Shown here piece after piece: positions 19,904 through 62,881 of a stretch of DNA of 64,000 bases. The stretch's first letter is position 1. Each line of letters begins with the position of its first letter. The notes beneath the pieces are model-generated. The model was not told where the DNA came from. It searched no databases and saw only the letters and a list, made by a program, of their open reading frames with translations. The position numbers were made by a program, and so were the translations under genes. The DNA comes from Armatimonadota bacterium (GTDB taxonomy: Bacteria; Sysuimicrobiota; Sysuimicrobiia; Sysuimicrobiales; Sysuimicrobiaceae), in the NCBI GenBank assembly GCA_025059775.1, contig JANXCW010000001.1, positions 65,588 to 129,587 of the forward strand. Direction: 5' to 3'.

Positions 19904-20098
19904 CTAGCCCTCCTCCCGTAACAGCTGCGAGGCGTGCATGAAGTACTCCGCGATGAGGGCGGTCTTTCCCAGGGCGATGAGCCCCAGCCACAGGAGGGAA
20001 CCGGGCCAGCGGGCCGCGAACCACTCCACCGCGGTGAGGGCCGCCAGTCCCGCGAACACCTGAACCCCCAGCCGGAACTTACGTGGCAACGGGCTCAT
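19904..20098 (-). CDS. ctaF: Heme-copper oxidase subunit IV
   Basis: Small two-TM protein with the K..LI..YFMH motif, lying between subunits I and III. Confidence 0.8.
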   Translation of the reverse strand: MSPLPRKFRLGVQVFAGLAALTAVEWFAARWPGSLLWLGLIALGKTALIAEYFMHASQLLREEG

Positions 20099-21923: not shown

Positions 21924-21927
21924 GCGC

Positions 21928-22722
21928 CTACCTCCGTGCCTGCTGCGCCACCCAGGCCTCAAACGCTTCCGGCTCCACCACCCGCACGGGGGCCGCCATG
22001 ATGCCATGGCCCACGCCGCACAGCTCCGCGCACTGCACCCGCAGGTCCGCGCTCTGTTCGAACGAACCCACGCGGGTCGGCGTCACGCGCAGGTAGGTGG
22101 TCAGGTTCGGCACCGCGTCGATCTTGGTGCGGAAGGCAGGCACCCAGAAGCTGTGCACGATGTCCACGGAGGTCACCTCGAAGCGCACCCGGCGGCCGGC
22201 AGGCAGAACCAGCTCCCGCGCGGTGACGTTGTGCTCCGGGTACTCGAACTGCCACAGCCACCGGCTGGCCCGGACCCGGACCACCAGCTCCCCGCCCGGG
22301 GGGAGCGACGGGAGTCCCACCGCCGCGTACCGGCCTCGGGCCAACAATCCCCCAAGGGGCACTCCCCGCATCTCCGCGAGCCCCACAAGTCCAGGGTTGT
22401 AGACCACGTAGACGCACAGGGCCGCGGTGAGGACGAACCATGTGCGGGGGATGGCGGGGTGCTCGGGGGTGTACGGGGGAGCTTCCGGTGGATCTCCCCG
22501 GCCACGCCGGGCCAGGAGCACGTACACGAGCACGGAGACCACCGCGGCGAACACAGGGCCGGCGAGCAGCATGAGGAGGCGGAAAGCGTGATCCGCCACC
22601 TCCGCCTCCCGTGCCGCGCTCAGAGGAAAGGCGTCGAATCGGGATGCCGCAAGCAGGAACAACGCACTGAACACCGCCCACAGGGCCACCAGGACTCCCG
22701 CGCGCATACCTTCCGGCTCCAC
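21928..22722 (-). CDS. ctaC: Heme-copper oxidase subunit II with CuA site
   Basis: Two TM helices, WLWQFEYP, DIVHSFWVP and CAELCGVGHGIM. No fused cytochrome c. Confidence 0.93.
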   Translation of the reverse strand: MEPEGMRAGVLVALWAVFSALFLLAASRFDAFPLSAAREAEVADHAFRLLMLLAGPVFAAVVSVLVYVLLARRGRGDPPEAPPYTPEHPAIPRTWFVLTAALCVYVVYNPGLVGLAEMRGVPLGGLLARGRYAAVGLPSLPPGGELVVRVRASRWLWQFEYPEHNVTARELVLPAGRRVRFEVTSVDIVHSFWVPAFRTKIDAVPNLTTYLRVTPTRVGSFEQSADLRVQCAELCGVGHGIMAAPVRVVEPEAFEAWVAQQARR

Positions 22723-40100: not shown

Positions 40101-41714
40101 ATGGCAGAAGAGATCCGCGTGGGAGGAGGCGAAATGCCCGGTAGACCGAAGGAAGCCGTAGTGCGGCGTATGCGGGTGGCGCAAGGGCTGGAGCCCGCAG
40201 ATCTCGTGGTCCGCGGCGCCGTGGTGGTGAACGTATACACGGGGGAACTCCATCCCGACTCCGTGATCGCCACCAGCGGGGATCGCATCGCATACGTGGG
40301 GCCGCCCATCCAGGGTCTGACAGGGGAGAACACCCAGGTGCTGGACGCCAAAGGGCGGTACGCCATACCCGGTCTCATTGATGGCCACACGCACCTCCTG
40401 GGCGCCCGCTACTGCCCGGAGGAAGCGCTTCCCCGCATCTTAGCCTCCGGTACCACCTCCGTGGTCACGGAGCTCGCGGAGCCCGCTTCCGTGGTGGGCC
40501 TGGCGGGCATCCGGGCAGGGATGGAGGCGGTGCGGGACCAGCCCGTGAAGGTCTTCGTGACCCTCCCGCCCCTTGCCTGTGCCGCTTCCTTCATGGAGGA
40601 CGTGGCGCTCGAGCTGGAAGGGGTACCGGGAGCTCCTGCAGCGCCCAGAAGTCGTGGGACTCGGGGAGGTGTACTGGGGGAACCTCGTGCTGCGGGAGGA
40701 CCCGCGGATCCTGGACCTTGTGTCACGGCCCTGGAGGCCGGAAAGGTGGTGGAGGGACACGGAGCGGGAGCCCGGGGAGGCCGGCTGAGCGCGTACGCGG
40801 CCGCGGGGATCACCTCCTGCCACGAGCCCATCACCCCGGAGGAGGTCCTAGAGCGGCTGCGGATGGGCTACCACACCATGGTGCGAGAGGGAAAGGTCCG
40901 GCAGGAGATGGAGGCGGTGGCTTCCGAGTGGCGGGAAAGCGGCGTGGATCTGCGGCGGTTGTGCCTGGTAACCGACAGCGTAGCCGCGGATCAGCTGTTG
41001 GAACTGGGATACATGGACCACCTTCTGCGGAAAGCCATCCGTCTAGGCATGGACCCTGTCCGGGCCGTGCAGGCGGTCACCCTGAATGTGGCGGAGCACT
41101 CCCGGCTGGACCACCTGATCGGAGGACTTGCCCCCGGCCGGTACGCGGACCTTGTCCTCACCCCGGACCTGCGGGACTTCCGCGCGGAGGTGGTGGTGGC
41201 AAACGGCCGGGTGGTGGCGGAAGACGGTAAGGTTCTGGTGTCGTTCCGTCCTCCCCGGTATCTGGAGGCACTTTGCCGCACCGTGCCTCCTGCGTGCCTG
41301 GTTTCTCCGGACGCCCTGCGGGTCCCGGCCCCAGGCCGAAAGGGGTCCGTGCGGGTGCGGACGGGAGGCTATGCCACCACCATGGCCTGGGATGCGCATT
41401 GTCTGGTAGCTGTAGGGTGCTCCCCTGAGAACACGGCCCTGGCCATCCGGCTGGCGGTGGCGCTGGGGGGCGGATGCGCGGTGGTCAGTAGGGGAGAGAT
41501 CCGGGCGGAGCTCCCGGCCCCCGTGGCGGGGGTGGTCTCCACCCTCCCCCTGGAGGAGGTGGCGCGGCGGGAACGGGCGGTGGACCAGGTGCTGCGGGAG
41601 TTGGGAGCCGGTAGCCCTCGTCCTTCCCTCACGGTGGACGTCCTTACCGCGACCGCTATCCCGCATTTCAAGATCAGCGCGGGTACGTCCGGGTGCGGGA
41701 CGGAAGCGTGGTAG
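40101..41714 (+). pseudogene. ade: Adenine deaminase-like amidohydrolase, with frameshifts and deletions
   Basis: PGLIDGHTH, CHE, VTD and G.APGRYAD motifs. The 40620-40722 segment reads correctly only in another frame (GLGEVYW); the C-domain is shortened. Confidence 0.8.
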
Positions 41715-41842
41715 GGGTGTGGATAGAGGAGGCGGAAGCGAACGGAGGCCGGGGGCCTCCCGGTTCCAGGGGGTAAAGAAACCCCTCTCTTCGACCCAGG
41801 CACTCAGGGGCGAAGAGGCGAGTCTGGGGGCTCGAATTCCCG

Positions 41843-41918
41843 TGGTGCCTGGGGAGGGAGTCGAACCCCCGACACGGGGATTTTCAGTCCCCTGCTCTAC
41901 CACCTGAGCTACCCAGGC
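41843..41918 (-). tRNA. tRNA-Phe (GAA)
   Basis: Reverse complement GCCTGGGTAGCTCAGGTGGTAGAGCAGGGGACTGAAAATCCCCGTGTCGGGGGTTCGACTCCCTCCCCAGGCACCA; cloverleaf with encoded CCA. Confidence 0.97.
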
Positions 41919-41921
41919 CCA

Positions 41922-41999
41922 TGGCGGGGACGACGGGATTTGAACCCGCGATCTCCGGCGTGACAGGCCGGTGTGTTGACCAGGCTACACCACGCCCCC
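41922..41999 (-). tRNA. tRNA-Asp (GTC)
   Basis: Reverse complement GGGGGCGTGGTGTAGCCTGGTCAACACACCGGCCTGTCACGCCGGAGATCGCGGGTTCAAATCCCGTCGTCCCCGCCA. Confidence 0.97.
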
Positions 42000-42033
42000 G
42001 CCACCCGTAGTTTACGGAGTCCACTCCGAGAAG

Positions 42034-44289
42034 TCAAAAGCCCCGCAGGGCCCGCAGCACCCGCTCCGGGGTGATGGGAAGTTCCAGGACGCGCGCCCCC
42101 ACCGCGTCCCGGATGGCATTCGCCACAGCCCCCGCCCCGGGCACCACCGGCGGCTCACCCACGCCCCGCGCTCCAAACGGGCCATGAGGGCTAGGGACCT
42201 CCACCAGCACGCCCTGCATGGACGGGATGGTGGTCGCCCGGGGGAGCGCGTAATCCAGAAACGAGGTGGTGCGTGGGATCCCGCTGCGGTCGTAGAAGAT
42301 GGCCTCCCATAATCCCCATCCCAGGCCCTGCACCATCCCTCCGTACACCTGCCCCTCGATGAGCAGCGGATTGATGGCGCAGCCCACGTCCTGCGCGAGC
42401 ACTGCGTCCAGAACCCTGACCTGACCGGTCTCCGGATCTACCCGCACCCGCACCAGCTGCGCGGCGAAAGCGGGCGCCTGCTCTGTCTGCGCGGAGGTTC
42501 CCACCGCCCAAATGGGCTCGAACCTTCCCCCAAACCGCTGGGCGAGCCCCGCCAGCTCCGCAAGGCTCACCCGAGGCTCAGAGACCCCTCGCACGAAGAC
42601 GTACCCGTCCCGCAGTTCCAGATCCTCCACCGCGGCCTCCAGGACCTGGGCGGCCATGCGCAGGATCCGAGCCCGGGCCTCCTCCGCGGCGTACTGCACC
42701 GCCCGCCCCACGGTGTAGAGCACCTTGCTCCCCGCGCTGGCACCCGCGTACGGCGCGTGGTCCGTATCTCCCTGCACGATCCGGACCCGCTCCGGCGGAA
42801 CCCCGAGGATCTCGGCCACCAGCTGTCCGAGGGCCGTGTGGGTCCCTTGTAGGTCCACCGCGCCCACGTGCACCCGCACGCTCCCGTCCCGGTCCACGGA
42901 GCATGCGGCAGCCGCGGGCTCCAATCCCCCGGGCCATCCGCCCACCGCAAGCCCCAGTCCCTCTCCCGGCGTCCTCCGTCCCTCCCGCCACAGGGGATGC
43001 TCCTGAATCGCCAGCAGGCACGCGCGAAGCCCGATGCGGGGGTACCGTCGGCCATCGGGAAGCGCGTCCCCTTCCTGCAGGAGGTTCTGCAGGCGGAACT
43101 CCAGAGGGTCCAGCCCGAGCTGCCGGCTCATCTCGTCCATCTGGGACTCCAGGGCGAAGGCCGCTTGCGGGGATCCGGGTGCCCGGTACGCGCCGGTTCC
43201 GGGCTTGTGGGTGAGGACCTCGAACGCCTCGATCTCCAGGTGCGGGAACCGGTAGATCGCGCCCAGCAGGAAGGCCGCGATCCGGGCGGGAGAGCCGGGA
43301 AAGGCGCCCGCGTCGAACACCAGACGGGCCTGCAAGGCGGTCAGGGATCCGTCCCGGCGCACGCCGGTCCGGAGGGTGAGGATGGCACCGTGCACGGGGT
43401 TGCTCAGGAGGAACTCCTCGTGGCGGGTGAGCACGATCCGCACGGGCCTGCGGGTGTGGACCGCCAGGGCAGCCGCGAGGGTCTCCAGCAGGAGGAACTT
43501 CCCCCCGAACCCACCCCCCACTGGGGCGGGCACCACCCGTACCCGATGCTCGGGCCAGCCCAGAAACCGCGCTACCTCCTGCCGGACCCCGAAGGGGCTC
43601 TGGGTTCCGGTCCAGAGCGTCAGCGCCTCCCCTCCCGGATCCGGGATCGCCACGGTCGCGTGGGGTTCCAGGTATCCCTGATGCACCGAAGCGGTGCGGT
43701 ACGTGCGCTCGAGCACCAGATCCGCCTCCCCGAGTCCCCTCGCCACATCGCCCCGCGCGAACCGGACCCGGGCGGCCACGTTCGGAGAGCCCCTGGGGGT
43801 CTGCGCGGCGGGCTCTTCCGCCCCCGCCGCATGGGCTCCCGCATCCGCCCGCAGTCCCGGAATCCCCTCGGGCCAGACCGGAGGGGCCTCCTCCGCCAGG
43901 GCCTCCAGGGGATCCACCACCGCGGGCAGGGGATCCACCTCTACCTCCACCAGGGCCGCGGCATCCTCCGCGGCAACCTCTCGCTCTCCGAGGACCACGG
44001 CCACGGGCTGCCCCGCGTACACCACCCGTTCCCGGGCCAACAGGCCCGTGGCGTGGCTGTAGGGGGTTCCCTGGAACCACGGAAGATCCCGGGCGGTGAG
44101 CACCGCCACCACCCCCGGGACCGCCAGGGCCCGGTCCGTGCCGATGCGTCGGATGCGGCCGTGGGCCACCGGACTCAGGACGAGCCGGGCGTGCAGGAGA
44201 TCCGGGACCCCGAGATCCGCCGCAAACCGGAGGCGCCCCGAGACCTTTTCCCGCCCCTCCCGAAGCGGGATCCGGCGTCCGATCCACAT
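42034..44289 (-). CDS. Xanthine dehydrogenase/aldehyde oxidoreductase-family molybdopterin-binding large subunit
   Basis: EKVSGRLRFAAD, VGGGFGGK, AYRAPG, G..S.GS, D.G.AINP..IEGQ.YGG and GVGEPP motifs. Confidence 0.92.
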   Translation of the reverse strand: MWIGRRIPLREGREKVSGRLRFAADLGVPDLLHARLVLSPVAHGRIRRIGTDRALAVPGVVAVLTARDLPWFQGTPYSHATGLLARERVVYAGQPVAVVLGEREVAAEDAAALVEVEVDPLPAVVDPLEALAEEAPPVWPEGIPGLRADAGAHAAGAEEPAAQTPRGSPNVAARVRFARGDVARGLGEADLVLERTYRTASVHQGYLEPHATVAIPDPGGEALTLWTGTQSPFGVRQEVARFLGWPEHRVRVVPAPVGGGFGGKFLLLETLAAALAVHTRRPVRIVLTRHEEFLLSNPVHGAILTLRTGVRRDGSLTALQARLVFDAGAFPGSPARIAAFLLGAIYRFPHLEIEAFEVLTHKPGTGAYRAPGSPQAAFALESQMDEMSRQLGLDPLEFRLQNLLQEGDALPDGRRYPRIGLRACLLAIQEHPLWREGRRTPGEGLGLAVGGWPGGLEPAAAACSVDRDGSVRVHVGAVDLQGTHTALGQLVAEILGVPPERVRIVQGDTDHAPYAGASAGSKVLYTVGRAVQYAAEEARARILRMAAQVLEAAVEDLELRDGYVFVRGVSEPRVSLAELAGLAQRFGGRFEPIWAVGTSAQTEQAPAFAAQLVRVRVDPETGQVRVLDAVLAQDVGCAINPLLIEGQVYGGMVQGLGWGLWEAIFYDRSGIPRTTSFLDYALPRATTIPSMQGVLVEVPSPHGPFGARGVGEPPVVPGAGAVANAIRDAVGARVLELPITPERVLRALRGF

Positions 44290-49724: not shown

Positions 49725-51007
49725 GAAGCCTTCGGGCGTACCAACAGCTTGTCGATGCGCCGACCGTCCAGGTCCACCACCTCGATCTCGTACCTCCCGA
49801 ACCCTACCTTCTCCCCCACGGAGGGGATGCGGCCCGTGAGGTGGAGCACGAGACCCGCCGCGGTGGTGGCCTCTCCGGTGTCCACGGTTTCCTCCTCCAA
49901 GCCCAGACGGGAGAGGAGCTGGTAAAGGGGGGTGAGACCGTCCACCAGCAGGGATCCATCTTCTCGCACCACGATCTCCGGCTCCTCCGCGCCATACTCC
50001 GAGGGGATCTCCCCCACGATCTCCTCCAGGATGTCCTCCAGGGTGACCCAGCCTGCGGTTCCCCCATACTCATCCAGCACCACCGCCGCATGAGTCCGGT
50101 GCTCCTGGAGCACCCGGAGGGCCTCCAGGACCCGCACGGTCTCCGGGAGGCTCGGAACGCTCCGGACCAGGTTCCGCCAGTCCTCCCCCTCGGGGCATCC
50201 CACCAAGTCCCGGGCGTACAGCACCCCTACGATGTGGTCGAGATCCCCCTCGTAGACGGGGAAGCGGGAGTAGGTGGAGCCGCGGACGGTGCGGAGCACC
50301 TCCGGCCAGGTGGCGTGCACGGGGAGGCCCACCAGCTCCGTGCGCGGGGTCATGATCTCCTCCAGGCGCCGGTTCGCTACGCGTGCCACGTCCGCCAGCA
50401 CCTTGGCCGTGGTCTCCCGCAGCAACCCCGTCCGTGCGCTCTCCTCCACCAGCACGCCGAAGTCCTCCAGGGTCATGCGCTGGGCCGGGAGCCGCCCCAG
50501 TCCCACCAACCACAGCACCGCGTTCGTGGCCGCAGTCAACAGCCCCACCGCGGGTGCCACGAGGCGCGTGAAGCTCCGCATGGCGGGCGCGAGGGCTACG
50601 GCCACCTCCTCCGCCCGCTCCAGGCTCACCCGCTTGGGCACAAGCTCCCCCACCACGAGGAAGAGGAACGTCAGGAACACCACCACGAGGCCCAGGGCCA
50701 CGGGCTCCGCGTAGGGGGCGAGAGGAGGCCAGCCCTGGAGGAGCACGGCGAGGGGCTGTGCGATGCGGACCCCCGAATACGCGGAGGCTAAGGTCCCCAC
50801 CAGGGTGATCCCGACCTGGACCGCGGCCAGGAACCGATCCCGGTGACGTACCAGATATAGAGCTGCTTCCGCCCCCCGCTCCCCCGTCCTCTGCAGGCGC
50901 TCCAGCCGGACTGTCCGGGCCGTGAGCACCGCGGTCTCCAACGCGGCGAAGGCCGCGTTGGCCAGAAGCAGCAGGAGGATGACGAGGGTTTCCTCCAGCC
51001 ACGCCAT
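49721..51007 (-). CDS. Hemolysin/CNNM-CBS-CorC_HlyC family protein
   Basis: FAALETA, VQVGITL, GELVPK, IMTPR, SRFPVY and DEYGGTAG.VT.EDILEEIVG motifs. Confidence 0.92.
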   Translation of the reverse strand: MAWLEETLVILLLLLANAAFAALETAVLTARTVRLERLQRTGERGAEAALYLVRHRDRFLAAVQVGITLVGTLASAYSGVRIAQPLAVLLQGWPPLAPYAEPVALGLVVVFLTFLFLVVGELVPKRVSLERAEEVAVALAPAMRSFTRLVAPAVGLLTAATNAVLWLVGLGRLPAQRMTLEDFGVLVEESARTGLLRETTAKVLADVARVANRRLEEIMTPRTELVGLPVHATWPEVLRTVRGSTYSRFPVYEGDLDHIVGVLYARDLVGCPEGEDWRNLVRSVPSLPETVRVLEALRVLQEHRTHAAVVLDEYGGTAGWVTLEDILEEIVGEIPSEYGAEEPEIVVREDGSLLVDGLTPLYQLLSRLGLEEETVDTGEATTAAGLVLHLTGRIPSVGEKVGFGRYEIEVVDLDGRRIDKLLVRPKAS

Positions 51008-51083
51008 CCGGGGTGGATTTTCTCCCCCTCCTAGGTCCCTCCCTGCCGCGGTCGCCCGAGGAGTCCGGGCAAGCCGGCTGCGG

Positions 51084-51647
51084 TCATCGGGGCGGACGGC
51101 GCTGGGAGATCAGGGCGTCGGAGTCGAGGATGGCCTGGGCCACCTCCCGCATGGTCCTGCGCTGGTTGCGGGCTCGCCGCTGGATCAGACGGTACGCCTC
51201 CTCCTCGTCCAGGCCCAGCCGTTTCATCAGGATGCCCTTCGCCCGCTCGACCAGCTTCCGTGTCTCCAGGGCCTCCCGGGCTTTCCGCACCTCCTGGAAC
51301 CGCTGGTAGCTCAGGGTCACCGTCGCCAGCAGCTCCGACTCCACCAACGGTTTGGTGATGTACGCGTAGGCACCCACCTCCTCGGCCGCCAACAGGAGCT
51401 CCCGGTCGCCGTAGGCGGTGAGGAAGACCACGGGCAGCCTTCCCGCCACCCGTCGGGCTACCTCGATCCCGTCCGTGGGCTCCATGCGGATGTCCAGCAC
51501 GAGGAGATCGGGCTGCAGTCGATCCACCAGTTCCAGGGCCTCCCGTCCCGAGGCCGCCTCCCCTACCACCTCGTGCCCGGCCTCCTCCAGGATCCGGCGC
51601 ACACCCATCCGGATGAGGGGTTCGTCGTCCGCGATGAGGATCCGCAT
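51084..51647 (-). CDS. ANTAR-domain response regulator (PdtaR/EutV/NitR-like)
   Basis: REC domain ADDE...LDIRM...LTAY...TKP, followed by ANTAR RKLVERAKGILM...LDEEEAY..IQR.ARNQRR.M.EVA. Confidence 0.93.
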   Translation of the reverse strand: MRILIADDEPLIRMGVRRILEEAGHEVVGEAASGREALELVDRLQPDLLVLDIRMEPTDGIEVARRVAGRLPVVFLTAYGDRELLLAAEEVGAYAYITKPLVESELLATVTLSYQRFQEVRKAREALETRKLVERAKGILMKRLGLDEEEAYRLIQRRARNQRRTMREVAQAILDSDALISQRRPPR

Positions 51648-51659
51648 ACCCACCTCCTG

Positions 51660-51694
51660 AAAGGAAAACGCCCCCGGCTGAAAACCGGGGGCGT
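51660..51694 (-). terminator. Intrinsic terminator between glnA and the ANTAR gene
   Basis: mRNA ACGCCCCCGG-UUUUCAG-CCGGGGGCGU followed by UUUCCUUU. Confidence 0.8.
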
Positions 51695-51702
51695 CCTGGC
51701 CC
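51689..51702 (-). promoter_or_regulatory. Candidate antiterminator hairpin GGGC-CAGGAC-GCCC overlapping the terminator 5' arm
   Basis: Identical 14-mer to 54795..54808. Confidence 0.7.
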
Positions 51703-51721
51703 GTGTGCGCGGACGCCGCGG

Positions 51722-53161
51722 TCACACGTCGAAGTACAGGTAGAACTCGTAGGGATGCGGCCGGATGTTCACCTCGTGCAGCTCCTTCTCCCGCTTGTAG
51801 CCGATCCAGGTCTCAATCAGGTCCCGAGTGAACACGTCTCCCTCCAGGAGGAACTCGTGATCCCGCTTCAGGGCGTCGAGGACCTCCCCGAGCGAGCCCG
51901 GCACACTCTTCACCCGGGCCGCCTCCTCCGGCGGGAGTTCATAGGTGTTCACGTCCAGGGGGCCGAAGGGGGAGGCATCCAGCTTACGCCGGATTCCGTC
52001 CAGTCCTGCCATGAGCATAGCCGCAAACGCCAGGTACGGGTTGCAGCTGGGATCCGGGGGCCGGAACTCGATGCGCTTGCTGGGTGCCGCTTCCGGCCCC
52101 GTGTAGTACATGGGGATGCGGATGCAGGCGCTGCGGTTCCGCTTGCTGAAGGCCACGTTCACCGGAGCCTCGTAGTGGGGCACCAGGCGCTTGTAGGAGT
52201 TCGTGGTGGGACTGGTGAAGGCCAGCACCGCGTCCACGTGGGTCAGCAGGCCCGCGATGTAGTGAAGGGCCAGGTCGCTGAGCTCCGCGTACCGCCCTTC
52301 CGCGTAGAAGAGGTTGCGGCCGTCCTTCCACAGGCTCTGGTGGGTGTGCATGCCGCTCCCATTATCCCCGAACAGGGGCTTGGGCATGAAGGTGACGGTG
52401 CAGCCGTGCCGACGGGCCACGTTGCGCATCACGTACTTGTAGATCATCACCTTGTCCGCCATCCGGATCAGGCTGTCCCGCTCCATGTCGATCTCCGCCT
52501 GGCCTGCGGTGGCCACCTCGTGGTGGTGCATCTCCACGGGAATGCCGATCTGCTCCAGGATCATGGCCGCCTCGCTGCGGATGTCCTGGAAGGTGTCGCT
52601 GGGGGGAGTGGGGAAGTAGCCCTCCTTGGGCCGGATCTTGTACCCCAGGTTCTTCCCCTCGTCGTTCCCCGTGTTCCAGATCCCCTCCCGGCTGTCGATG
52701 CAGTAGCCCATGCGGTGCGGGAGCACCTCGTAGGTCACGTGGTCGAAGATGAAGAACTCGATCTCCGGTCCCCAGTAGCTTACCTCCGCGATCCCCGTTT
52801 CCCTGAGGTACGCCTCCGCCTTCCTGGCCACGTACCGGGGATCCCGGCTGTAGGGGGCCCGGGTTTCGGGATCCACCACGTCGCAGATCATCACCAGGGT
52901 CGGGATCTGCAGGAAGGGGTCCACGAAGGCCGTGGAGGGGTCCGGCAGGAGCAGCATGTCGCTCTCCTGAATGGCCTGGAAGCCCCGGATGCTGCTACCG
53001 TCAAATCCCACTCCCTTCTTGAAGGTAGATTCGTCCAGGGCCGAGGCGGGAATGGTGGCGTGCTGCCACACCCCGGGCACGTCCGTGAAGCGGAGGTCCA
53101 CCATCTGGATGTTCTTCTCCTTCACCAATCTCAACACGTCCTGTACCGTCTTTCCCATCAT
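51722..53161 (-). CDS. glnA: Glutamine synthetase type I
   Basis: VDLRFTD, FDGSSIRGF, HHEVA, PKPLFGDNGSGMH, NSYKRLVP, NRSACIRIP and RIEFR.PDP motifs. The adenylylation Tyr is kept (NTYEL). Confidence 0.97.
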   Translation of the reverse strand: MMGKTVQDVLRLVKEKNIQMVDLRFTDVPGVWQHATIPASALDESTFKKGVGFDGSSIRGFQAIQESDMLLLPDPSTAFVDPFLQIPTLVMICDVVDPETRAPYSRDPRYVARKAEAYLRETGIAEVSYWGPEIEFFIFDHVTYEVLPHRMGYCIDSREGIWNTGNDEGKNLGYKIRPKEGYFPTPPSDTFQDIRSEAAMILEQIGIPVEMHHHEVATAGQAEIDMERDSLIRMADKVMIYKYVMRNVARRHGCTVTFMPKPLFGDNGSGMHTHQSLWKDGRNLFYAEGRYAELSDLALHYIAGLLTHVDAVLAFTSPTTNSYKRLVPHYEAPVNVAFSKRNRSACIRIPMYYTGPEAAPSKRIEFRPPDPSCNPYLAFAAMLMAGLDGIRRKLDASPFGPLDVNTYELPPEEAARVKSVPGSLGEVLDALKRDHEFLLEGDVFTRDLIETWIGYKREKELHEVNIRPHPYEFYLYFDV

Positions 53162-53203
53162 GTCGCTTCCCTCCCTCTGTTCATGTCGCTTCCCTCCCTC
53201 TGT
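53158..53203. repeat. Perfect 23-bp tandem duplication of the glnA RBS and start codon
   Basis: TCATGTCGCTTCCCTCCCTCTGT occurs at 53158-53180 and 53181-53203. Confidence 0.95.
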
Positions 53204-53223
53204 GGTCTGCAGGAGTTCGGACG

Positions 53224-53334
53224 CTATCCACCATCCTCCTCCGTGGGGCGGCGGCCCCGGAGGATGCGGCTGGGGAGAACCACCCAGGCGCAGAACAGGG
53301 CAATGAAGGTTCCCAGAGCGAGCCATGCCTCCAT
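53224..53334 (-). CDS. Small single-TM protein (36 aa), not in the ORF track
   Basis: MEAWLALGTFIALFCAWVVLPSRILRGRRPTEEDGG*. GGGAGGG RBS upstream of the ATG; co-directional between amtB and glnA. Confidence 0.7.
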   Translation of the reverse strand: MEAWLALGTFIALFCAWVVLPSRILRGRRPTEEDGG

Positions 53335-53362
53335 GGTGGTGTTCCCTCCCGATCCGTGGATT

Positions 53363-54736
53363 TCATGCTCCCCCCGCGGGCACCAGGGTGGACTCCAGGA
53401 CGTACGCGGGCGTGCCGTGCTCCGGCAGGTCGAGCCCCTGCAGCTCCTCCTCCCGCGAGGCCCGGAGACCGATGGTGCTGCGGATCAGAGCGAACATCAG
53501 GTATCCCGTGATCAGCGACCATGCGGTGACCACCCCCATGCTGATCAGTTGGGCTATGAGCTGCCCCACTTCCCCGACGATGAGGCCCCGTACGCCTCCG
53601 TACGTGCCGTCCGCGAAGATCCCCACGGCCAGCAGCCCCCACAGACCTCCGGCCGCGTGCACGGAGACCGCGCCCACGGGGTCGTCCACCTTGAGGGTCC
53701 GCTCCACGAACCCGAGACTCCACATCATCACGAGGGCCGCGATGGCCCCGATCACCACCGCCGCCCAGGTGGGCACGTAGGCACACGGCGCGGTGATCCC
53801 CACGAGCCCTGCCAGCGCGCCGTTGCACGCCATGGTGATGTCCGCCTTCCCTGTGCGCACCAGGCTCGCGTACAGGGCCACCACCGCACCCGCGGCGCCC
53901 GCCAGGAAGGTGTTCACCGCGATGACGGAGATGCGCAGGTCCGTGGCGGCCAGGGTGCTGCCGGGATTAAAGCCGAACCACCCGAAGAACAGGATGAAGG
54001 TTCCGATCACCACGTAGGTCATGTTGTGGCCAGGGATGGGATTCGGGGTGCCATCCGGGTTGTACTTGCCGAGGCGGGGGCCAACCATGGCAGCGCCCAC
54101 GAGCCCCAGCAGCCCCCCGACCGCGTGGACTACCCCAGAACCCGCGAAGTCCCGGGCTCCCACCCCGAACGGCAGGTTCGCCAGCCACCCGCCCCCCCAC
54201 ACCCAGTGCCCGTAGATGGGGTAGATCACCGCGGACACGATGAAGCTGTAGGCCAGGTAGGCGGTGATCTTCGTCCGCTCCGCCATGGCCCCGGCCACGA
54301 TGGTGGCCGCGGTGGCCGCGAAGACCATCTGGAAGAACCAGTACAGGATGGTGGTGACGTCGTAGGCTGCCCCGCTCAGGAAGAACCCGGAGAGTCCGAT
54401 CCACGCATTCCCGTGTTCCAGGCCGCTGCTGAGCTGGCTACCTCCGAACATGAGGGCAAATCCGAACGCCCAGTAGGAGAGGGCGGCGATGCTGAAGTCC
54501 ATGTAACTCTTCGTCAGGTAGTTCACGGTGTTCTTGGATCGGATGAGCCCAGCGCCCAGCAGGGCGAATCCCGCCTGCATGAAGAACACCAGGAACGCCG
54601 CCACGAGGGTCCAGGCGAAGTTCACCGCGGCTTCCGGCTTCTGCTTGATGGTCTCTGCCCCGCTGGGATCCGCGCCCCACGCAGGCAGGACCGCACACAG
54701 CATCAGGAGGACCAGGATCCCCACAACCCGTCGCAT
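53363..54736 (-). CDS. amtB: Ammonium transporter
   Basis: FFMQAGFA.L, DFAGSGVVH, WFGWFGFN and DDPVGAVSVH (twin His) motifs; cleavable N-terminal signal-like segment. Confidence 0.97.
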   Translation of the reverse strand: MRRVVGILVLLMLCAVLPAWGADPSGAETIKQKPEAAVNFAWTLVAAFLVFFMQAGFALLGAGLIRSKNTVNYLTKSYMDFSIAALSYWAFGFALMFGGSQLSSGLEHGNAWIGLSGFFLSGAAYDVTTILYWFFQMVFAATAATIVAGAMAERTKITAYLAYSFIVSAVIYPIYGHWVWGGGWLANLPFGVGARDFAGSGVVHAVGGLLGLVGAAMVGPRLGKYNPDGTPNPIPGHNMTYVVIGTFILFFGWFGFNPGSTLAATDLRISVIAVNTFLAGAAGAVVALYASLVRTGKADITMACNGALAGLVGITAPCAYVPTWAAVVIGAIAALVMMWSLGFVERTLKVDDPVGAVSVHAAGGLWGLLAVGIFADGTYGGVRGLIVGEVGQLIAQLISMGVVTAWSLITGYLMFALIRSTIGLRASREEELQGLDLPEHGTPAYVLESTLVPAGGA

Positions 54737-54763
54737 GAAACGCCTCCTGCTCCGGACGGATCT

Positions 54764-54803
54764 AAAAAAGAAGGACGCCCACACCAAGTGGTGTGGGCGT
54801 CCT
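54764..54803 (-). terminator. Intrinsic terminator (attenuator) in the amtB 5' leader
   Basis: mRNA AGGACGCCCACACC-ACUU-GGUGUGGGCGUCCU followed by UCUUUUUU, between the promoter and the amtB RBS. Confidence 0.88.
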
Positions 54804-54808
54804 GGCCC
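54795..54808 (-). promoter_or_regulatory. Candidate antiterminator hairpin GGGC-CAGGAC-GCCC
   Basis: Overlaps the 5' arm of the leader terminator; identical to 51689..51702. Confidence 0.7.
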
Positions 54809-54843
54809 ACGGACAAAACTCCTTATGGGAATTTCAAGTCCCT

Positions 54844-54890
54844 ATGTATCACGCCCGCGGGGCACCTGTCAATGACCTTCTTCGAGGTCA
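54844..54890 (-). promoter_or_regulatory. amtB promoter (-35 TTGACA) with an abutting palindrome TGACCT-N6-AGGTCA
   Basis: TGTCAA at 54867-54872, palindrome at 54873-54890, and a weak -10-like TGaTACAT downstream. Confidence 0.6.
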
Positions 54891-54924
54891 GGCAAAATTT
54901 TTGGGGGGGGGAACCCACGGGCCC

Positions 54925-55986
54925 CTATGCCAGGCCCCGGATGCGCAGGCGCAGATCGTTGGGGGAATCCGCGGCCCGGAGGGCGTCCTCCAGGGAGATC
55001 AGCCCCTTGCGGTAGAGCGTGTACAGGGCCTGGTCAAAGGTCTGCATTCCCTCCCCGCTCCCCGCCTGGATGGCCGCCCTGATCCCCGCGAAGTCCCCAC
55101 GCCGGATGAGCTCCCGGATGCGGGGCGTGGCCACCATCACCTCCACGGCCACCACCCGACCCTGCCCATCCGATCGGGGCACCAGGCGCTGGCTGACGAT
55201 GCCCTCCAGGGTGAGGGAGATGCGGTGCAGCACCTCCTGCGCTTGGTCCATGGGGAAGAAGGCCAGGAGTCGCTCCAGGGTTTGGCTCGCATTGATGGAG
55301 TGCAAGGTGCTGAGCACCAGGTGCCCGGTTTCCGCGAAGTACAGGGCCGCGTCCGCGGATTCCCGGTCCCGCATCTCCCCGATGAGGAGGACGTCGGGGG
55401 CCTGGCGTAGGGCTCCCCGCAGGGCGTGGTGGAAGCTCGGGGTGTCCGTAGCGACTTCCCGCTGGCTCACCAGGCTGCGCCTGTCGGGGTGCAGGAACTC
55501 GATGGGATCCTCGATGGTGATGATGTGGCCGGAGGCGTGACGGTTCCGGTAATCGATCATGGCCGCGAGGGTGGTGCTCTTCCCGGAGCCCGTGGGGCCG
55601 GTGACGAACACGAGTCCCCTCGGTCGCATCACGAGCTCCGCCAGGATCTCCGGGAGACCCAGCTGCTGGAAGGAGGGGATGTCCATGCGCACCCGGCGTG
55701 CCACGAAGGCGATGGACCCCCGCTGCTGGTAGACGTTGATCCGGAACCGACCCACCCCGGGGAAACTGTAGGCTAGGTCCACGTTCTGCTCCGTGCGCAG
55801 CTGCCGGCGCTGCTCCTCGTCCAACAGTTGATCCGCCAGGGCCCGGCTCATCTCCGGAGTCACCCGATCCCACGACCCCGGCTGGAGCTCCCCGTGCACC
55901 CGGAAGGTGGGCGGGGAACCCACCTTTACGTAGAGGTCGCTGGCGTCCCGCTCCACCATCTCCCGCAGGAGGTCATGCACGTCCAT
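54925..55986 (-). CDS. pilU: Type IV pilus retraction ATPase, PilU-like
   Basis: ASDLY.KVG.PP, GPTGSGKSTT, TIEDPIE, LRQAPDV and LSTLH motifs. Confidence 0.88.
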   Translation of the reverse strand: MDVHDLLREMVERDASDLYVKVGSPPTFRVHGELQPGSWDRVTPEMSRALADQLLDEEQRRQLRTEQNVDLAYSFPGVGRFRINVYQQRGSIAFVARRVRMDIPSFQQLGLPEILAELVMRPRGLVFVTGPTGSGKSTTLAAMIDYRNRHASGHIITIEDPIEFLHPDRRSLVSQREVATDTPSFHHALRGALRQAPDVLLIGEMRDRESADAALYFAETGHLVLSTLHSINASQTLERLLAFFPMDQAQEVLHRISLTLEGIVSQRLVPRSDGQGRVVAVEVMVATPRIRELIRRGDFAGIRAAIQAGSGEGMQTFDQALYTLYRKGLISLEDALRAADSPNDLRLRIRGLA

Positions 55987-60250: not shown

Positions 60251-62881
60251 TCAGCCGTCCTTCTGCTCCAGGACCTCCCGCACCTTGGCGGTGAGTTCCG
60301 GAATGAGGTAAGGCTTCTGCAGGAATCCCCTAGCTCCCTTCCGCAGGAGCTCTCCCGCAGCCCCTTCCTGGGTGTAGCCGCTGCTGAGGAGCACGCGGGC
60401 CTGAGGGTTGAGGCTCAGAAGGGCCTCGAAGACCTCCTGTCCGCTCATCCCGGGCATGATCATGTCCAGGATCACAAGGTCCACCTCGTCCCGCCACTGC
60501 TGGTAGAGCTCCAGGGCCTCCTCCCCGCTGCGGGCCACCAGGACCCGGTAGCCGCGGCGGGTGAGGACCTCCCGCAGCAGGTTGCACAGGGGCTCTTCAT
60601 CGTCCACCACGAGGATGAGTTCTCCGGATCCTTCCGCCACGCCCGTTGCTTCCTCCTCCTGGGGTTGGGGTTGCCATTCCACCGGTACGGGCAGGTACAC
60701 CTGAACCGTGGTCCCCTTGCCCACCTGGCTCTGGAGGTCTACGAACCCACCGTGGTTGCGCACGATCCCGTACACCATGGCCATGCCGAGTCCCGTGCCC
60801 TTCCCGGGCTCCTTGGTGGTGAAGAAGGGCTCGAAGACCCGGCTCTTCACGTAGTCGTCCATGCCCACCCCGGTGTCCCGGACGGTGAGCACCACGTAGC
60901 GTCGGAGGTTCGGAGGCCCCTGGGAGGTGGGATCGTCCGCGAGGGCCTCCCCGAGCTCCAGCGTTAGGATCCCGCCTTGCGGCATGGCGTCCTTGGCGTT
61001 CATGCACAGGTTCAGGATCACCTGCTGCAGCTGCCCAGGGTCTCCCTCCACCTCGGGCAAATCCTCCGGGAAGCGGGTCTGGATCTCGATCCGCTCGTGG
61101 AGGGTGCTCCGGAACAGGCTCAGCACCTCCTCGCAGAGGGTCCTGAGTTGCACCCGCTGGACCGTGAACTTCCCCCTGCGGGCGAATCCCAGGAGCTGGC
61201 GGGTGAGCTCACTGGCCCGCAGGGCGCTGCGCTCCACCACCTCGAGGTACTGACGGAAGGTGGCTTCCGGAGGAAGGTCCTCCTTGATGAGGCCGAGGTA
61301 GCCCACGATGGATCCGAGGATGTTGTTGAAGTCGTGGGCGATTCCGCCCGCCAGGGTCCCCAGGCTTTCCATCTTCTGGGCCTGGATGAGCTGCTCCTCC
61401 AGGCGCTTCTGCTCCGTCACGTCCCGGTACACGCCCACGATCCCCACCGTCTCCCCCACCTCGTTTCGGTGCACGGAGAGGGTGGCCGAAAGCCAGAGCA
61501 GCCGTCCGTCCTCCCGGCGGTGCTGCAGCTCCCCCCGCCACCGCCCCGCCCGCTGGAGAATGGCCCGGATCCGGTCCAGGTCAAAGGGACGGCCCTCCGG
61601 TCTGAGCAGATCCTGGAGCCGGCGGCCCACCACCTGCTCCGCCCGCCACGCATAGAGCGTCTCGCAGGCCCGGTTGCAGTACAGAATGCGTCCCTCCCAG
61701 TCCGTGGCGATGATGGCGTCGTGCACGCACTCCAACAGTTCCGCCTGGAACCGGAGGGCCTCTTCCATGCGACGCTCATGGGTGATGTCCCGGAGGATCC
61801 CCATGAGGACAGGTTTCCCCTCGAGCAGCACCCGGTTCGCCCGCAGCTCGCACGTGATCATGCCCCCGTCTGACCGCCTGCCCCGGAACACCACCGCCTC
61901 CTCCCGGCCCCTCTGCGCCAGACGATCCGCGAGGTACTGGGCCAGCCGGGGTCGATCTTCCTCCACGCACAGGGCCAGCAGCCCCATCCGGTGTACCGCC
62001 TCCACGGAGGAGACGCCGAACATGTGGACAAAGGACCGATTCACGAACCGGAAGAGCCCATCTTCCAGCAGGAACATGGCGTCCGGAGACCCCTCGATGA
62101 GCACCCGGTACCGGGTCTCGGACTCCCGCAGGCTCTCCTCGATCCGCCAGCGGCCGGTGACGTCGTAGGCGAAGGCGGCGAGGTGGTGTATCATCCCCCG
62201 GGGGTCCCGGAGTGGCGCCAGGACCACCTCCACCATGCGCGGGGTGCTTCCGTCGGAGGGAGTCCACTTCCGGGGGGGGAGGCGCACCACGTGCCCCCGC
62301 AGCGCCGCTTCCAGCAGCGGCCGGTCCACTGGACCGAAGACCGTGCCGTCCTGGAGCAGATGCCCCGGCGCCTGCTCGCGGGGGATGCCGAACAGCCGAT
62401 GCCACGCGGGATTGGTGACGACCGCGTTGCCCTCTGGGTCGTAGATCCCTACCGCCACGGGCAGATCCGCGATGGCACCCCGGATCCACTCCACCGGGAC
62501 CGGTCCGTAGAGCCCCGGAGGTTCGGAGAGCACCAGGTACGCGGAGCCGTCCGGGGCCCTCCTCGCCCGGGCCTCCACCTCCACCACCTCTCCGCTGATC
62601 CGCCGCAAGCGGAGGCGGCCCCCCCGCGGGTGCGGGGGAAGGCCCTGGAAGAACCTCCTGGAATCGCTGGAGCGCTCCACCAGATCCCGGAACGCAAACC
62701 CCACCAGGGAAGGAGCCCGGAGGCCTACCAGGCGGCCGGCCGCCTCGTTCGCCCGCAGGATCCGCCCATCCGCCCCTACGTGCAGGAGGGGAACGGGTAC
62801 GAGATCCCACAGGAGGTCCAGTGGATTGTGGAGCTCCTCTGTACGTCCCTGCGGACCGGGCTTTTTCCAGAACATGCCCAC
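60251..62881 (-). CDS. Hybrid sensor histidine kinase (about four PAS/PAC domains, HisKA, HATPase, REC)
   Basis: QKMESLGTLAGGIAHDFNN, NLCMNAKDAM, DTGVGM, FFTTK..GKGTGLG and a C-terminal REC domain (VVDDE...LDMIMP). Confidence 0.93.
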   Translation of the reverse strand: MGMFWKKPGPQGRTEELHNPLDLLWDLVPVPLLHVGADGRILRANEAAGRLVGLRAPSLVGFAFRDLVERSSDSRRFFQGLPPHPRGGRLRLRRISGEVVEVEARARRAPDGSAYLVLSEPPGLYGPVPVEWIRGAIADLPVAVGIYDPEGNAVVTNPAWHRLFGIPREQAPGHLLQDGTVFGPVDRPLLEAALRGHVVRLPPRKWTPSDGSTPRMVEVVLAPLRDPRGMIHHLAAFAYDVTGRWRIEESLRESETRYRVLIEGSPDAMFLLEDGLFRFVNRSFVHMFGVSSVEAVHRMGLLALCVEEDRPRLAQYLADRLAQRGREEAVVFRGRRSDGGMITCELRANRVLLEGKPVLMGILRDITHERRMEEALRFQAELLECVHDAIIATDWEGRILYCNRACETLYAWRAEQVVGRRLQDLLRPEGRPFDLDRIRAILQRAGRWRGELQHRREDGRLLWLSATLSVHRNEVGETVGIVGVYRDVTEQKRLEEQLIQAQKMESLGTLAGGIAHDFNNILGSIVGYLGLIKEDLPPEATFRQYLEVVERSALRASELTRQLLGFARRGKFTVQRVQLRTLCEEVLSLFRSTLHERIEIQTRFPEDLPEVEGDPGQLQQVILNLCMNAKDAMPQGGILTLELGEALADDPTSQGPPNLRRYVVLTVRDTGVGMDDYVKSRVFEPFFTTKEPGKGTGLGMAMVYGIVRNHGGFVDLQSQVGKGTTVQVYLPVPVEWQPQPQEEEATGVAEGSGELILVVDDEEPLCNLLREVLTRRGYRVLVARSGEEALELYQQWRDEVDLVILDMIMPGMSGQEVFEALLSLNPQARVLLSSGYTQEGAAGELLRKGARGFLQKPYLIPELTAKVREVLEQKDG

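What the first reader, a model, noticed from the sequence alone, without database searches (positions are those of the whole stretch)
51647..54840. ANTAR-type RNA antitermination circuit controlling amtB-glnA and the regulator itself
Seen: two intrinsic terminators, one in the amtB leader (54764-54803) and one between glnA and the ANTAR gene (51660-51694). The 5' arm of each is overlapped by the identical 14-mer GGGC-CAGGAC-GCCC, a 4-bp stem with a hexaloop (G at position 4) that is mutually exclusive with the terminator. Each is directly preceded by another hairpin (AAAUUCC-CAUAA-GGAGUUU and CGCGG-CGU-CCGCG). Established: ANTAR proteins bind tandem hairpins whose second member overlaps a terminator (canonical hexaloops have A1/G4), and a glnA-linked ANTAR regulator, NitR, is known in Clostridium. 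Differences here: C1 instead of A1, and non-canonical first hairpins. Inference: nitrogen assimilation is gated by a variant ANTAR RNA element with positive autoregulation.
Basis: partly seen in the sequence, partly recalled or inferred. Interest (0 to 1): 0.85.

Follow-up and report, generated by a model that had tools for sequence, protein, structure and literature searches.

The report
ANTAR-controlled terminators in nitrogen operon
An ammonium-transporter/glutamine-synthetase operon of an Armatimonadota bacterium carries two transcription stop signals, each overlapped by the same small RNA hairpin that the RNA-binding regulator encoded at the end of the operon most likely clamps to allow read-through; this is a known kind of nitrogen switch with a slightly unusual RNA signature.

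Summary
All genes are on the minus strand: amtB, a 36-aa ORF, glnA, then a REC-ANTAR response regulator (RR). Two strong intrinsic terminators sit in the amtB leader and in the 74-nt glnA-RR spacer. The 5' arm of each is overlapped by the exact 14-mer GGGC-CAGGAC-GCCC, which occurs only twice in the window (0.01 expected).

Across relatives with RRs 51-93% identical I found 20 further units. Each is a GG(G)C-CNNGAN-GCC(C) hairpin overlapping a terminator of unrelated sequence. All are sense-oriented in leaders of amtB, glnA, the RR gene itself and one other cluster. Loop positions C1, G4 and A5 are invariant.

The RR keeps its phospho-acceptor residues and the four EutV residues that contact loop G4. 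So ANTAR antitermination with positive autoregulation is well supported by comparison, but untested experimentally.

Several relatives have no room for one and instead carry two hairpin-terminator units in tandem.

ANTAR control of amtB, glnA and GOGAT genes is already known (GnfR, NitR, predictions of Ramesh 2012). The new points are the C1/A5 loop signature and the apparently single-hexaloop units. Interest is moderate.

The parts
54843..54872 (-). Promoter-like region of the amtB operon: TTGACA (54872-54867), 17-18 nt spacer, weak -10 (ATACAT/TACATA, 54849-54843)
   Evidence: Read directly. A perfect TTGACA with a 17-18 nt spacer and a TA-rich hexamer recurs at the same relative place in L083, L170, L161, L164, L169 and L086. 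The consensus scanner did not call it, so it is an inference.
54811..54841 (-).
   Evidence: Folds at -12.3 kcal/mol, z = -2.7. Close relatives L170 and L083 keep a hairpin here with a different sequence and register. It is not a hexaloop, has no G4, and is absent from more distant relatives. Its role is uncertain.
54795..54808 (-). Antiterminator hairpin P2 of the amtB leader: GGGC-CAGGAC-GCCC (extendable to GUGGGC...GCCCAC, 54810-54793)
   Evidence: The covariance model scores it 26.2 bits; the next best hit in the window scores 14.3.
54764..54803 (-). Intrinsic terminator of the amtB leader (14-bp stem, ACUU loop, U-tract)
53363..54736 (-). amtB (ammonium transporter, 457 aa)
   Evidence: PF00909, E = 2e-125.
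53224..53334 (-). Conserved 36-aa membrane ORF between amtB and glnA
   Evidence: No Pfam hit. It is 97% identical in L081-083. A homologous ORF sits at the same position in L169, sharing the WVVLP.R motif.
51722..53161 (-). glnA (type I glutamine synthetase, 479 aa)
   Evidence: PF03951 + PF00120.
51708..51720 (-).
   Evidence: L083 and L170 each differ by a single base. There is no equivalent in L161.
51689..51702 (-). Antiterminator hairpin P2 of the glnA-RR spacer: GGGC-CAGGAC-GCCC
   Evidence: The covariance model scores it 28.3 bits.
51660..51694 (-). Intrinsic terminator between glnA and the regulator gene. Only 12 nt, holding the RBS AGGAGG (51658-51653), separate its U-tract from the ATG.
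51084..51647 (-). REC-ANTAR response regulator (187 aa)
   Evidence: PF00072 (E = 2e-27) and PF03861 (E = 1e-22). Closest solved structures are Rv1626 and EutV. D7/D8, D52, T77 and K99 are present. The EutV residues that contact G4 are conserved as R130, K137, E148 and Y152 (with PMC8934654).

Best explanation
The operon amtB-(small ORF)-glnA-RR is transcribed from one promoter and is gated by two attenuators.

By default, RNA polymerase stops at the leader terminator (54803-54764). Any polymerase that gets through stops again at the terminator after glnA (51694-51660).

When the REC-ANTAR regulator is phosphorylated, presumably under nitrogen limitation, its dimer binds the nascent hairpin GGGC-CAGGAC-GCCC. 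That hairpin is transcribed before the terminator's 3' arm. Holding it folded withholds the 5' arm of the terminator, so polymerase reads through.

The regulator gene can only be reached by reading through both terminators. Active regulator therefore raises its own synthesis, which is positive feedback that depends on basal leak.

The sequence-specific determinant is the single hexaloop hairpin with C1, G4 and A5. The upstream hairpins are at most auxiliary.

Shown by sequence and comparison: the anatomy, the mutual exclusivity of the two folds, conservation of the motif, its linkage to this RR clade, and intact receiver and G4-binding residues.

Inferred: protein binding, dependence on phosphorylation, the direction of the nitrogen signal, and the identity of the kinase.
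For: 1. Two exact 14-mers, with 0.01 expected by chance. Each overlaps the 5' arm of a strong terminator.

2. There are 22 units in all, with invariant GGC / C1..G4A5 / GCC:
- L083/L170: RR 91-93% identical, same synteny.
- L161: 71% identical; two tandem units before amtB and one before the RR.
- L165: 66%.
- L085: 64%.
- L164: 61%; two units before the RR and two before amtB.
- L166/L167: 60-61%.
- L169: 55%; two units before amtB.
- L086: 51%; one unit before glnA.
The terminator arms differ entirely between loci, while the hairpin does not.

3. Specificity:
- Of 114 matches to GGCCNNGANGCC in 1.59 Mb of loci, only those in these leaders are followed by a terminator.
- The covariance model separates the two window sites (28.3 and 26.2 bits) from the next hit at 14.3.
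- In L169, which was not used for training, the model's top two hits in 20 kb are the two amtB-leader units. There are none in the Dictyoglomus locus.

4. All units are in the sense orientation relative to the downstream gene, including the divergent pair in L166. This points to an RNA signal, not a DNA site.

5. The RR has REC and ANTAR domains, intact acceptor residues, and the EutV residues that contact G4 (PMC8934654).

6. No promoter can fit between the glnA-RR terminator and the RR start codon.

7. Precedents: GnfR for amtB/glnK/nif (PMC2995071); NitR for GS/GOGAT genes (PMC6316151, citing Stutz 2007); predicted ANTAR sites before ammonium transporter, P-II and glutamine synthase genes (PMC3369931).
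Against: - There are no expression or binding data.
- The hairpin stem is sequence-invariant, so there is essentially no covariation: one G-C to A-U change, not above the shuffles.
- The loop has C, not the canonical A, at position 1. A1 mutations impair EutV and NasR (PMC3369931).
- The window has no canonical P1 hexaloop. In EutV, deleting P1 or changing the linker abolishes antitermination (PMC3369931, PMC8934654).
- No histidine kinase is linked to the RR.
- Genomes of this group also encode a second REC-ANTAR protein paired with a PdtaS-like kinase. That protein could be the actual binder.
- Rfam has no family that matches the element.
Confidence: 0.8

Rival explanations
1. This is a canonical dual-hairpin ANTAR site. 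The upstream hairpin (54841-54811; 51720-51708) is an obligatory P1 that recruits the regulator before P2 emerges, despite its non-hexaloop cap.
For: - Leaders with a single unit do tend to have a hairpin just upstream of P2. L085 has CGAC-CACGAC-GUCG with a 3-nt linker. L167 has a long helix capped by CGUGCU. L169 unit 2 has GUGGCC-GAAGAG-GGCCAC with a 3-nt linker. L086 has GGUAC-UGACAG-GUACC.
- The amtB-leader hairpin persists in L170 and L083 despite many substitutions.
- EutV needs P1 (PMC3369931).
Against: - The window's hairpins have penta- and tri-loops without G4.
- The L083 version is no better than shuffles (z = -0.8).
- L161 amtB unit 1, L164 amtB unit 1 and L169 amtB unit 1 start only 7-20 nt after the -10 hexamer, which leaves no room for a P1.
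- 3-bp hexaloop hairpins are common by chance in this G+C-rich DNA.
Confidence: 0.3
2. The hairpin is an antiterminator, but it is bound by a different protein than the linked RR. Candidates are the PdtaR-like REC-ANTAR paralogue or an unrelated RNA-binding protein. The glnA-linked RR would then have other targets.
For: - L164 and L165 encode a second REC-ANTAR gene next to a GAF-HisKA_2 kinase within 10 kb.
- In L086 the RR next to the glnA unit is itself kinase-linked and only 51% identical.
Against: The motif sits upstream of this RR clade's own gene in all but one orthologous locus examined at 60-100% identity, even where no nitrogen gene is linked, as in L085, L166 and L167. Such self-association is the usual signature of the cognate regulator.
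Confidence: 0.1
3. No regulated switch exists. These are ordinary, partly leaky terminators, and the conserved 12-14-mer is a DNA operator or another sequence-level signal, or a small metabolite-sensing RNA.
For: The stem shows no covariation. The motif is short. There is no Rfam match.
Against: - The orientation is strictly sense. The position is fixed relative to terminators of unrelated sequence. Tandem units each have their own terminator.
- A leader terminator before amtB has no purpose unless it is conditional.
- The RR gene has no other route to expression.
- A 14-nt hairpin is too small for a ligand pocket.
Confidence: 0.05

Closest known systems
EutV/EutW and the eut dual-hexaloop antiterminators of Enterococcus faecalis (Ramesh 2012, PMC3369931; Walshe 2022, PMC8934654)
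   Same: - The regulator is a REC-ANTAR response regulator (EutV E = 2e-37).
- A short hairpin with a hexaloop carrying G4 overlaps the 5' arm of an intrinsic terminator.
- The residues that contact G4 are conserved.
- Several attenuators lie within one operon.
- The regulator gene is embedded in the regulated operon (the last point is from my own knowledge of the eut locus).
   Different: - Loop position 1 is C, not A, and A5 is also invariant.
- There is no conserved P1 hexaloop at 5-12 nt.
- The Met172 equivalent is Arg160.
- The cargo is ammonium assimilation, not ethanolamine use.
- The kinase is unlinked.
GnfK/GnfR of Geobacter sulfurreducens (Ueki & Lovley 2010, PMC2995071)
   Same: - An ANTAR response regulator antiterminates at leader terminators of nitrogen genes, including amtB and glnK.
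- A conserved 14-nt RNA site (CAGGCAANGGCGCC) lies upstream of and overlapping the terminator.
- RNA binding depends on phosphorylation.
   Different: - The GnfR site reads as GGC-AANGGC-GCC, with a canonical A1/G4 loop (my parsing).
- GnfR is transcribed from a sigma-54/GnfM promoter rather than behind its own attenuator.
- It belongs to a different phylum and a nif-centred regulon.
NitR of Clostridium saccharobutylicum (Stutz 2007, as summarised in PMC6316151)
   Same: An ANTAR-family regulator tied to glnA that induces GS/GOGAT genes on nitrogen limitation by antitermination. Gene linkage of glnA and the regulator is from my own knowledge of the original paper, which I did not read here.
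   Different: The RNA site there was not compared, because the paper is not in the library. That organism is a low-G+C Firmicute, and antisense RNA is also involved.
PdtaS/PdtaR (Rv1626) of actinobacteria
   Same: Best structural relative by sequence (1s8n, E = 2e-41). It has the same REC-ANTAR architecture, and many database homologues are labelled PdtaR.
   Different: - PdtaR-type loci fetched from genomes lack linked nitrogen genes and the motif.
- PdtaR targets act mainly on translation, according to PMC8164766.
- PdtaR is linked to a GAF-HisKA_2 kinase.

Membership tests
ANTAR-target RNA (dual-hexaloop antiterminator as defined in PMC3369931 / PMC8164766) | An ANTAR-domain protein is encoded in the same genome or locus | tested here: met
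   PF03861, E = 1e-22, in the gene directly downstream.
ANTAR-target RNA (dual-hexaloop antiterminator as defined in PMC3369931 / PMC8164766) | A P2 hairpin of at least 3 bp with a hexanucleotide loop, mutually exclusive with an intrinsic terminator | tested here: met
   for the window. The same arrangement is seen in 20 further units in relatives.
ANTAR-target RNA (dual-hexaloop antiterminator as defined in PMC3369931 / PMC8164766) | G at loop position 4 | tested here: met
   G4 is invariant in the 16 aligned distinct units and in the L169/L170 units.
ANTAR-target RNA (dual-hexaloop antiterminator as defined in PMC3369931 / PMC8164766) | A at loop position 1 | tested here: not met
   Position 1 is C in every unit.
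ANTAR-target RNA (dual-hexaloop antiterminator as defined in PMC3369931 / PMC8164766) | A second hexaloop hairpin (P1, A1/G4) 2-25 nt upstream of P2 | tested here: not met
   In the window the upstream hairpins have a pentaloop (CAUAA) and a triloop (CGU). Across relatives the result is inconclusive: G4 hexaloops are present in L085, L167 and L169 unit 2, and a P1 is impossible in L161, L164 and L169 unit 1.
ANTAR-target RNA (dual-hexaloop antiterminator as defined in PMC3369931 / PMC8164766) | The ANTAR protein binds the RNA and causes read-through | not testable with these tools
   Needs EMSA, in vitro transcription or genetics.
REC-ANTAR response regulators (EutV / PdtaR / GnfR type) | An N-terminal receiver with acceptor Asp and catalytic residues, and a C-terminal ANTAR three-helix domain | tested here: met
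   PF00072 + PF03861. D7/D8, D52, T77 and K99 were read from the translation. Full-length alignment to 1s8n and 6wsh.
REC-ANTAR response regulators (EutV / PdtaR / GnfR type) | Residues that contact loop G4 in EutV (Arg142, Lys149, Glu160, Tyr164) | tested here: met
   They align to R130, K137, E148 and Y152 (residue roles from PMC8934654). Met172 becomes Arg160, Arg168 becomes Gln156, and Arg177 becomes Thr165.
REC-ANTAR response regulators (EutV / PdtaR / GnfR type) | A cognate histidine kinase | tested here: inconclusive
   No kinase is adjacent. The window holds a HAMP kinase paired with an OmpR-type RR (5243-7106) and a hybrid PAS kinase (60251-62881). Neither can be assigned.
Any Rfam family | A match to a curated covariance model | tested here: not met
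   Only tRNAs reach the gathering score. Around the element there are only sub-threshold chance hits.

The most novel reading that the evidence does not exclude
This RR clade, in Armatimonadota and neighbouring lineages, uses a distinct ANTAR recognition code. The code is a single GGC-C-N-N-G-A-N-GCC hexaloop hairpin that suffices for antitermination without a P1. It is deployed either singly or as two successive hairpin-terminator units. This would be a natural answer to the question left open by the EutV-RNA structure, namely whether single-hexaloop sites can drive ANTAR antitermination. It would also mean that covariance models built on A1/G4 dual hairpins systematically miss such regulons. 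The Met172-to-Arg160 change in the hexaloop-contacting helix could underlie the altered loop preference.
Probability: 0.35. Interest if true: 0.6.

Novelty: new variant of a known kind. Interest (0 to 1): 0.42.

Why it matters
The finding extends ANTAR antitermination of core ammonium assimilation (amtB, glnA and the regulator itself) to Armatimonadota, a phylum known mostly from metagenomes.

It also defines a compact, searchable RNA signature: GGC-CNNGAN-GCC overlapping a terminator. With it, the nitrogen regulon of these uncultured bacteria can be mapped from sequence alone.

The element departs from the canonical definition in two ways: C rather than A at loop position 1, and no conserved first hairpin. 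If these departures hold up, it is a natural test case for how little RNA an ANTAR dimer needs to block a terminator. It would also be a small, modular antitermination part. If they do not hold up, this is simply one more member of a well-described regulatory class.

Tried and rejected
- The Rfam scan of the window (gathering threshold), and a permissive scan of 51500-55000, found only tRNAs and chance sub-threshold hits.
- The 14-mer with up to 2 mismatches is not enriched, so that test is uninformative.
- The sigma-70 consensus scanner called no promoter in 50500-55500. The promoter assignment rests on conservation of TTGACA plus spacing in relatives.
It returned almost only PdtaR-like actinobacterial and Chloroflexi loci at 51% identity or less, without nitrogen genes. 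Only L011 had glnA nearby, and its spacer has no unit.
- Dictyoglomus (RR 50% identical) has no nitrogen linkage and no unit.
- The covariation test on the P2 stem shows essentially none, because the stem is sequence-invariant.
- The search for a canonical P1 (any hexaloop hairpin of 3 bp or more within 60 nt upstream) gives many chance candidates and no consistent one. UGUAC-UUCGAC-GUGUG at the glnA 3' end is present in the window and L083 but lost in L161, and its sequence is dictated by the codons.
- A tblastn search with PdtaS-like kinases found only a weak HATPase hit at 5246-5557, which belongs to an unrelated HAMP kinase/OmpR pair.
- The alternative pairing GGCGUCC with GGACGCC in the glnA-RR spacer is not conserved in L083 or L170, so I did not build on it.

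Full report
**1. What is in the window**

All relevant genes are on the minus strand:
- a PilT-like ATPase, 54925-55986
- a 188-nt intergenic leader
- amtB, 53363-54736
- a 36-aa hydrophobic ORF, 53224-53334
- glnA, 51722-53161
- a 74-nt spacer
- a REC-ANTAR response regulator (RR), 51084-51647
- a CNNM/CorC gene

The closest database proteins are from Armatimonadota MAGs. The contig of GCA_031459935.1 (L170, RR 91% identical) has the same gene order across 20 kb.

**2.

The exact 14-mer GGGCCAGGACGCCC occurs at 54808-54795 and 51702-51689 and nowhere else. Shuffles give a mean of 0.01 copies, and none gave two.

Each copy folds as GGGC-CAGGAC-GCCC (-5.7 kcal/mol). Each shares its loop and 3' arm with the 5' arm of a strong terminator:
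- 54803-54764: 14 bp, -29.7 kcal/mol
- 51694-51660: -23.6 kcal/mol

When the nascent RNA is folded only as far as the end of the 14-mer, the amtB leader shows the small hairpin already formed. So the hairpin can exist before the terminator's 3' arm is made.

After the second terminator only 12 nt remain before the RR start codon, and they hold the RBS. The RR can therefore be expressed only by read-through.

**3. Comparative evidence**

I collected loci through the RR protein.

| Locus | RR identity | Gene context | Units found |
|---|---|---|---|
| L083 / L170 | 91-93% | same as window | both units; one loop change in L083 (CGGGAC); new terminator loops |
| L161 | 71% | glnA-amtB-glnB-glnA-RR | two tandem units before amtB (CGGGAC, CGUGAA), each with its own terminator; the exact 14-mer with a third, unrelated terminator before the RR |
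| L165 | 66% | gltB-RR | two units before the RR (CAGGAC, CAAGAC) |
| L085 | 64% | no nitrogen gene linked | one unit before the RR (CGGGAU) |
| L164 | 61% | gltB-RR-amtB | RR has its own promoter and two units (GGC-CACGAC-GCC twice); amtB has two more with the exact 14-mer |
| L166 / L167 | 60-61% | no nitrogen gene linked | one unit each before the RR; L166 also has a divergent unit heading an MR_MLE/urate-oxidase cluster |
| L169 | 55% | amtB-small ORF-glnA-RR | two units before amtB (CGUGAU, CUUGAU) |
| L086 | 51% | kinase-linked RR | one unit in the glnA leader (CGUGAC) |

That makes 22 units in total. GGC / C1, G4, A5 / GCC are invariant. The terminators share nothing but their architecture.

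Specificity checks:
- Among 114 matches to the 12-mer pattern in 1.59 Mb, only those in these leaders are followed by terminators.
- A small covariance model puts the window's two sites at 28.3 and 26.2 bits, against 14.3 for the next hit.
- In L169, which was not in the training set, the model's two best hits in 20 kb are exactly the two leader units.
- Every unit is in the sense orientation relative to the gene it precedes. This argues for an RNA signal rather than a DNA signal.

**4. The protein**

- Pfam finds REC and ANTAR domains.
- The nearest solved structures are Rv1626/PdtaR and EutV.
- The receiver residues D7/D8, D52, T77 and K99 are present.
- In the EutV-RNA structure the only base-specific contact is to loop G4, through Tyr164, Arg142, Lys149 and Glu160 (PMC8934654). 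These align to Y152, R130, K137 and E148 here.
- The 'hydrophobic plug' Met172 is Arg160 here, conserved in at least 90% of the 41 aligned homologues.
- No kinase is adjacent. The window has an unrelated HAMP kinase/OmpR pair and a hybrid PAS kinase 5.5 kb upstream.

**5. Mechanism**

The best-supported reading is ANTAR antitermination:
1. The phosphorylated RR dimer binds the nascent hexaloop hairpin and keeps the terminator from forming.
2. It does so first in the amtB leader and then after glnA.
3. Read-through raises AmtB, GS and the RR itself.

Autoregulation is a conserved trait. In most orthologous loci the RR gene sits behind at least one unit of its own, whether it has its own promoter (L164, L165, L085, L166, L167) or lies at the end of the operon (window, L083, L161). 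In L169 it follows glnA directly, behind the attenuated amtB leader.

That activation occurs under nitrogen limitation is inferred from NitR and GnfR.

**6. The first hairpins**

They are not a conserved component.
- In three leaders the first unit begins 7-20 nt after the -10 hexamer, so there is no room for one. Those leaders instead carry a second complete unit 42-67 nt downstream.
- Single-unit leaders usually do have some hairpin just upstream, and in L085, L167 and L169 unit 2 it has a G4 hexaloop.
- In the window the caps are a pentaloop and a triloop.
- The amtB-leader hairpin survives many substitutions among the closest relatives, but it is not statistically distinguishable from chance in L083.

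I therefore treat a P1 requirement as open (rival 1, confidence 0.3).

**7. Comparison with what is known**

The class is well known.
- Dual-hexaloop ANTAR antiterminators were defined in E. faecalis, with A1/G4 loops and a 5-12 nt linker. They were predicted upstream of ammonium transporter, P-II and glutamine synthase genes in many phyla (PMC3369931).
- GnfK/GnfR antiterminates at amtB, glnK and nif leaders in Geobacter, through a conserved 14-nt site (PMC2995071).
- NitR controls GS/GOGAT genes in Clostridium saccharobutylicum (PMC6316151).

This element meets the P2, terminator-overlap, G4 and linked-protein criteria. It fails A1 (always C) and, in the window, the P1 hexaloop.

Walshe et al. 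redefined the minimal binding motif as a single hexaloop and explicitly asked whether single-hexaloop sites function (PMC8934654). This clade is a plausible natural example, but only experiments can tell.

**8. Verdict**

This is a real feature, correctly read by the first stage. It is a new variant (C1/A5 loop, weak or absent P1, tandem units in relatives) of a known kind of nitrogen attenuator. Interest is moderate at 0.42. Confidence in ANTAR antitermination by the linked RR is about 0.8.

Noticed in passing
window 53158-53203 (-): A 2 x 23-nt tandem duplication of the glnA ribosome-binding site and start codon. It is absent from L083 and L081, which show a 26-nt gap in the alignment. It creates an 8-codon upstream ORF (ATG at 53184) whose TGA stop (53160-53158) overlaps the glnA ATG-ATG. 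This could be a strain-specific change in glnA translation initiation or coupling.
   Followed up: partly
window 53224-53334 (-); L169 8386-8498: A small hydrophobic ORF (36 aa, no Pfam hit) lies between amtB and glnA. It is conserved in position, and partly in sequence (F..LF..WVVLP.R), in a relative whose RR is only 55% identical. In L161 a P-II gene (glnB) occupies this slot. The window's operon has no P-II gene at all.
   Followed up: partly
L165 5206-5313; homologous stretch L164 about 5250-5420: The gltB (glutamate synthase) leader next to the orthologous RR matches the Guanidine-I/ykkC riboswitch model (64.7 bits; gathering score 63) and ends in a strong terminator. Given the gltB context it may be a ykkC subtype-2 (ppGpp/PRPP-type) variant. 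So GOGAT and GS/AmtB appear to be gated by different RNA devices in the same locus.
   Followed up: no
L166 9673-9692 (-): A further unit (GGC-CAUGAC-GCC plus terminator) lies on the opposite strand, divergent from the RR leader. It heads a cluster with MR_MLE, urate-oxidase-N, amidohydrolase and creatininase genes. This suggests the regulon reaches into organic-nitrogen scavenging.
   Followed up: partly
window 51084-51647 (-), residue 160: The residue equivalent to EutV Met172, which plugs the RNA hexaloop, is Arg160 here and in at least 90% of 41 aligned homologues. The equivalents of Arg168 and Arg177 are Gln156 and Thr165, as in Rv1626. This may correlate with the C1/A5 loop preference.
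   Followed up: no
window 60251-62881 (-) and 5243-7106 (-): The first region holds a hybrid PAS-PAS-HisKA-HATPase-REC kinase, 5.5 kb upstream of the amtB leader and syntenic in L170. The second holds a HAMP-HisKA kinase with an OmpR-type regulator. Neither can be tied to the orphan ANTAR regulator.
   Followed up: partly
window 51710-51716 versus 51691-51697 (-): In the glnA-RR spacer, GGCGUCC inside the small upstream hairpin is complementary to GGACGCC of the 14-mer. In a prefix fold this gives an alternative pairing more stable than the two small hairpins. It carries one mismatch in L083 and one in L170, so it is probably incidental.
   Followed up: partly
window 27482-29458 (-), 20079-22007 (-), 40101-44289: Other genes seen while looking for kinases: a nosZ-like nitrous-oxide reductase, a cytochrome oxidase subunit I, and an adenine deaminase next to a molybdopterin xanthine-dehydrogenase-type subunit. 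None carries the hairpin-terminator unit.
   Followed up: no
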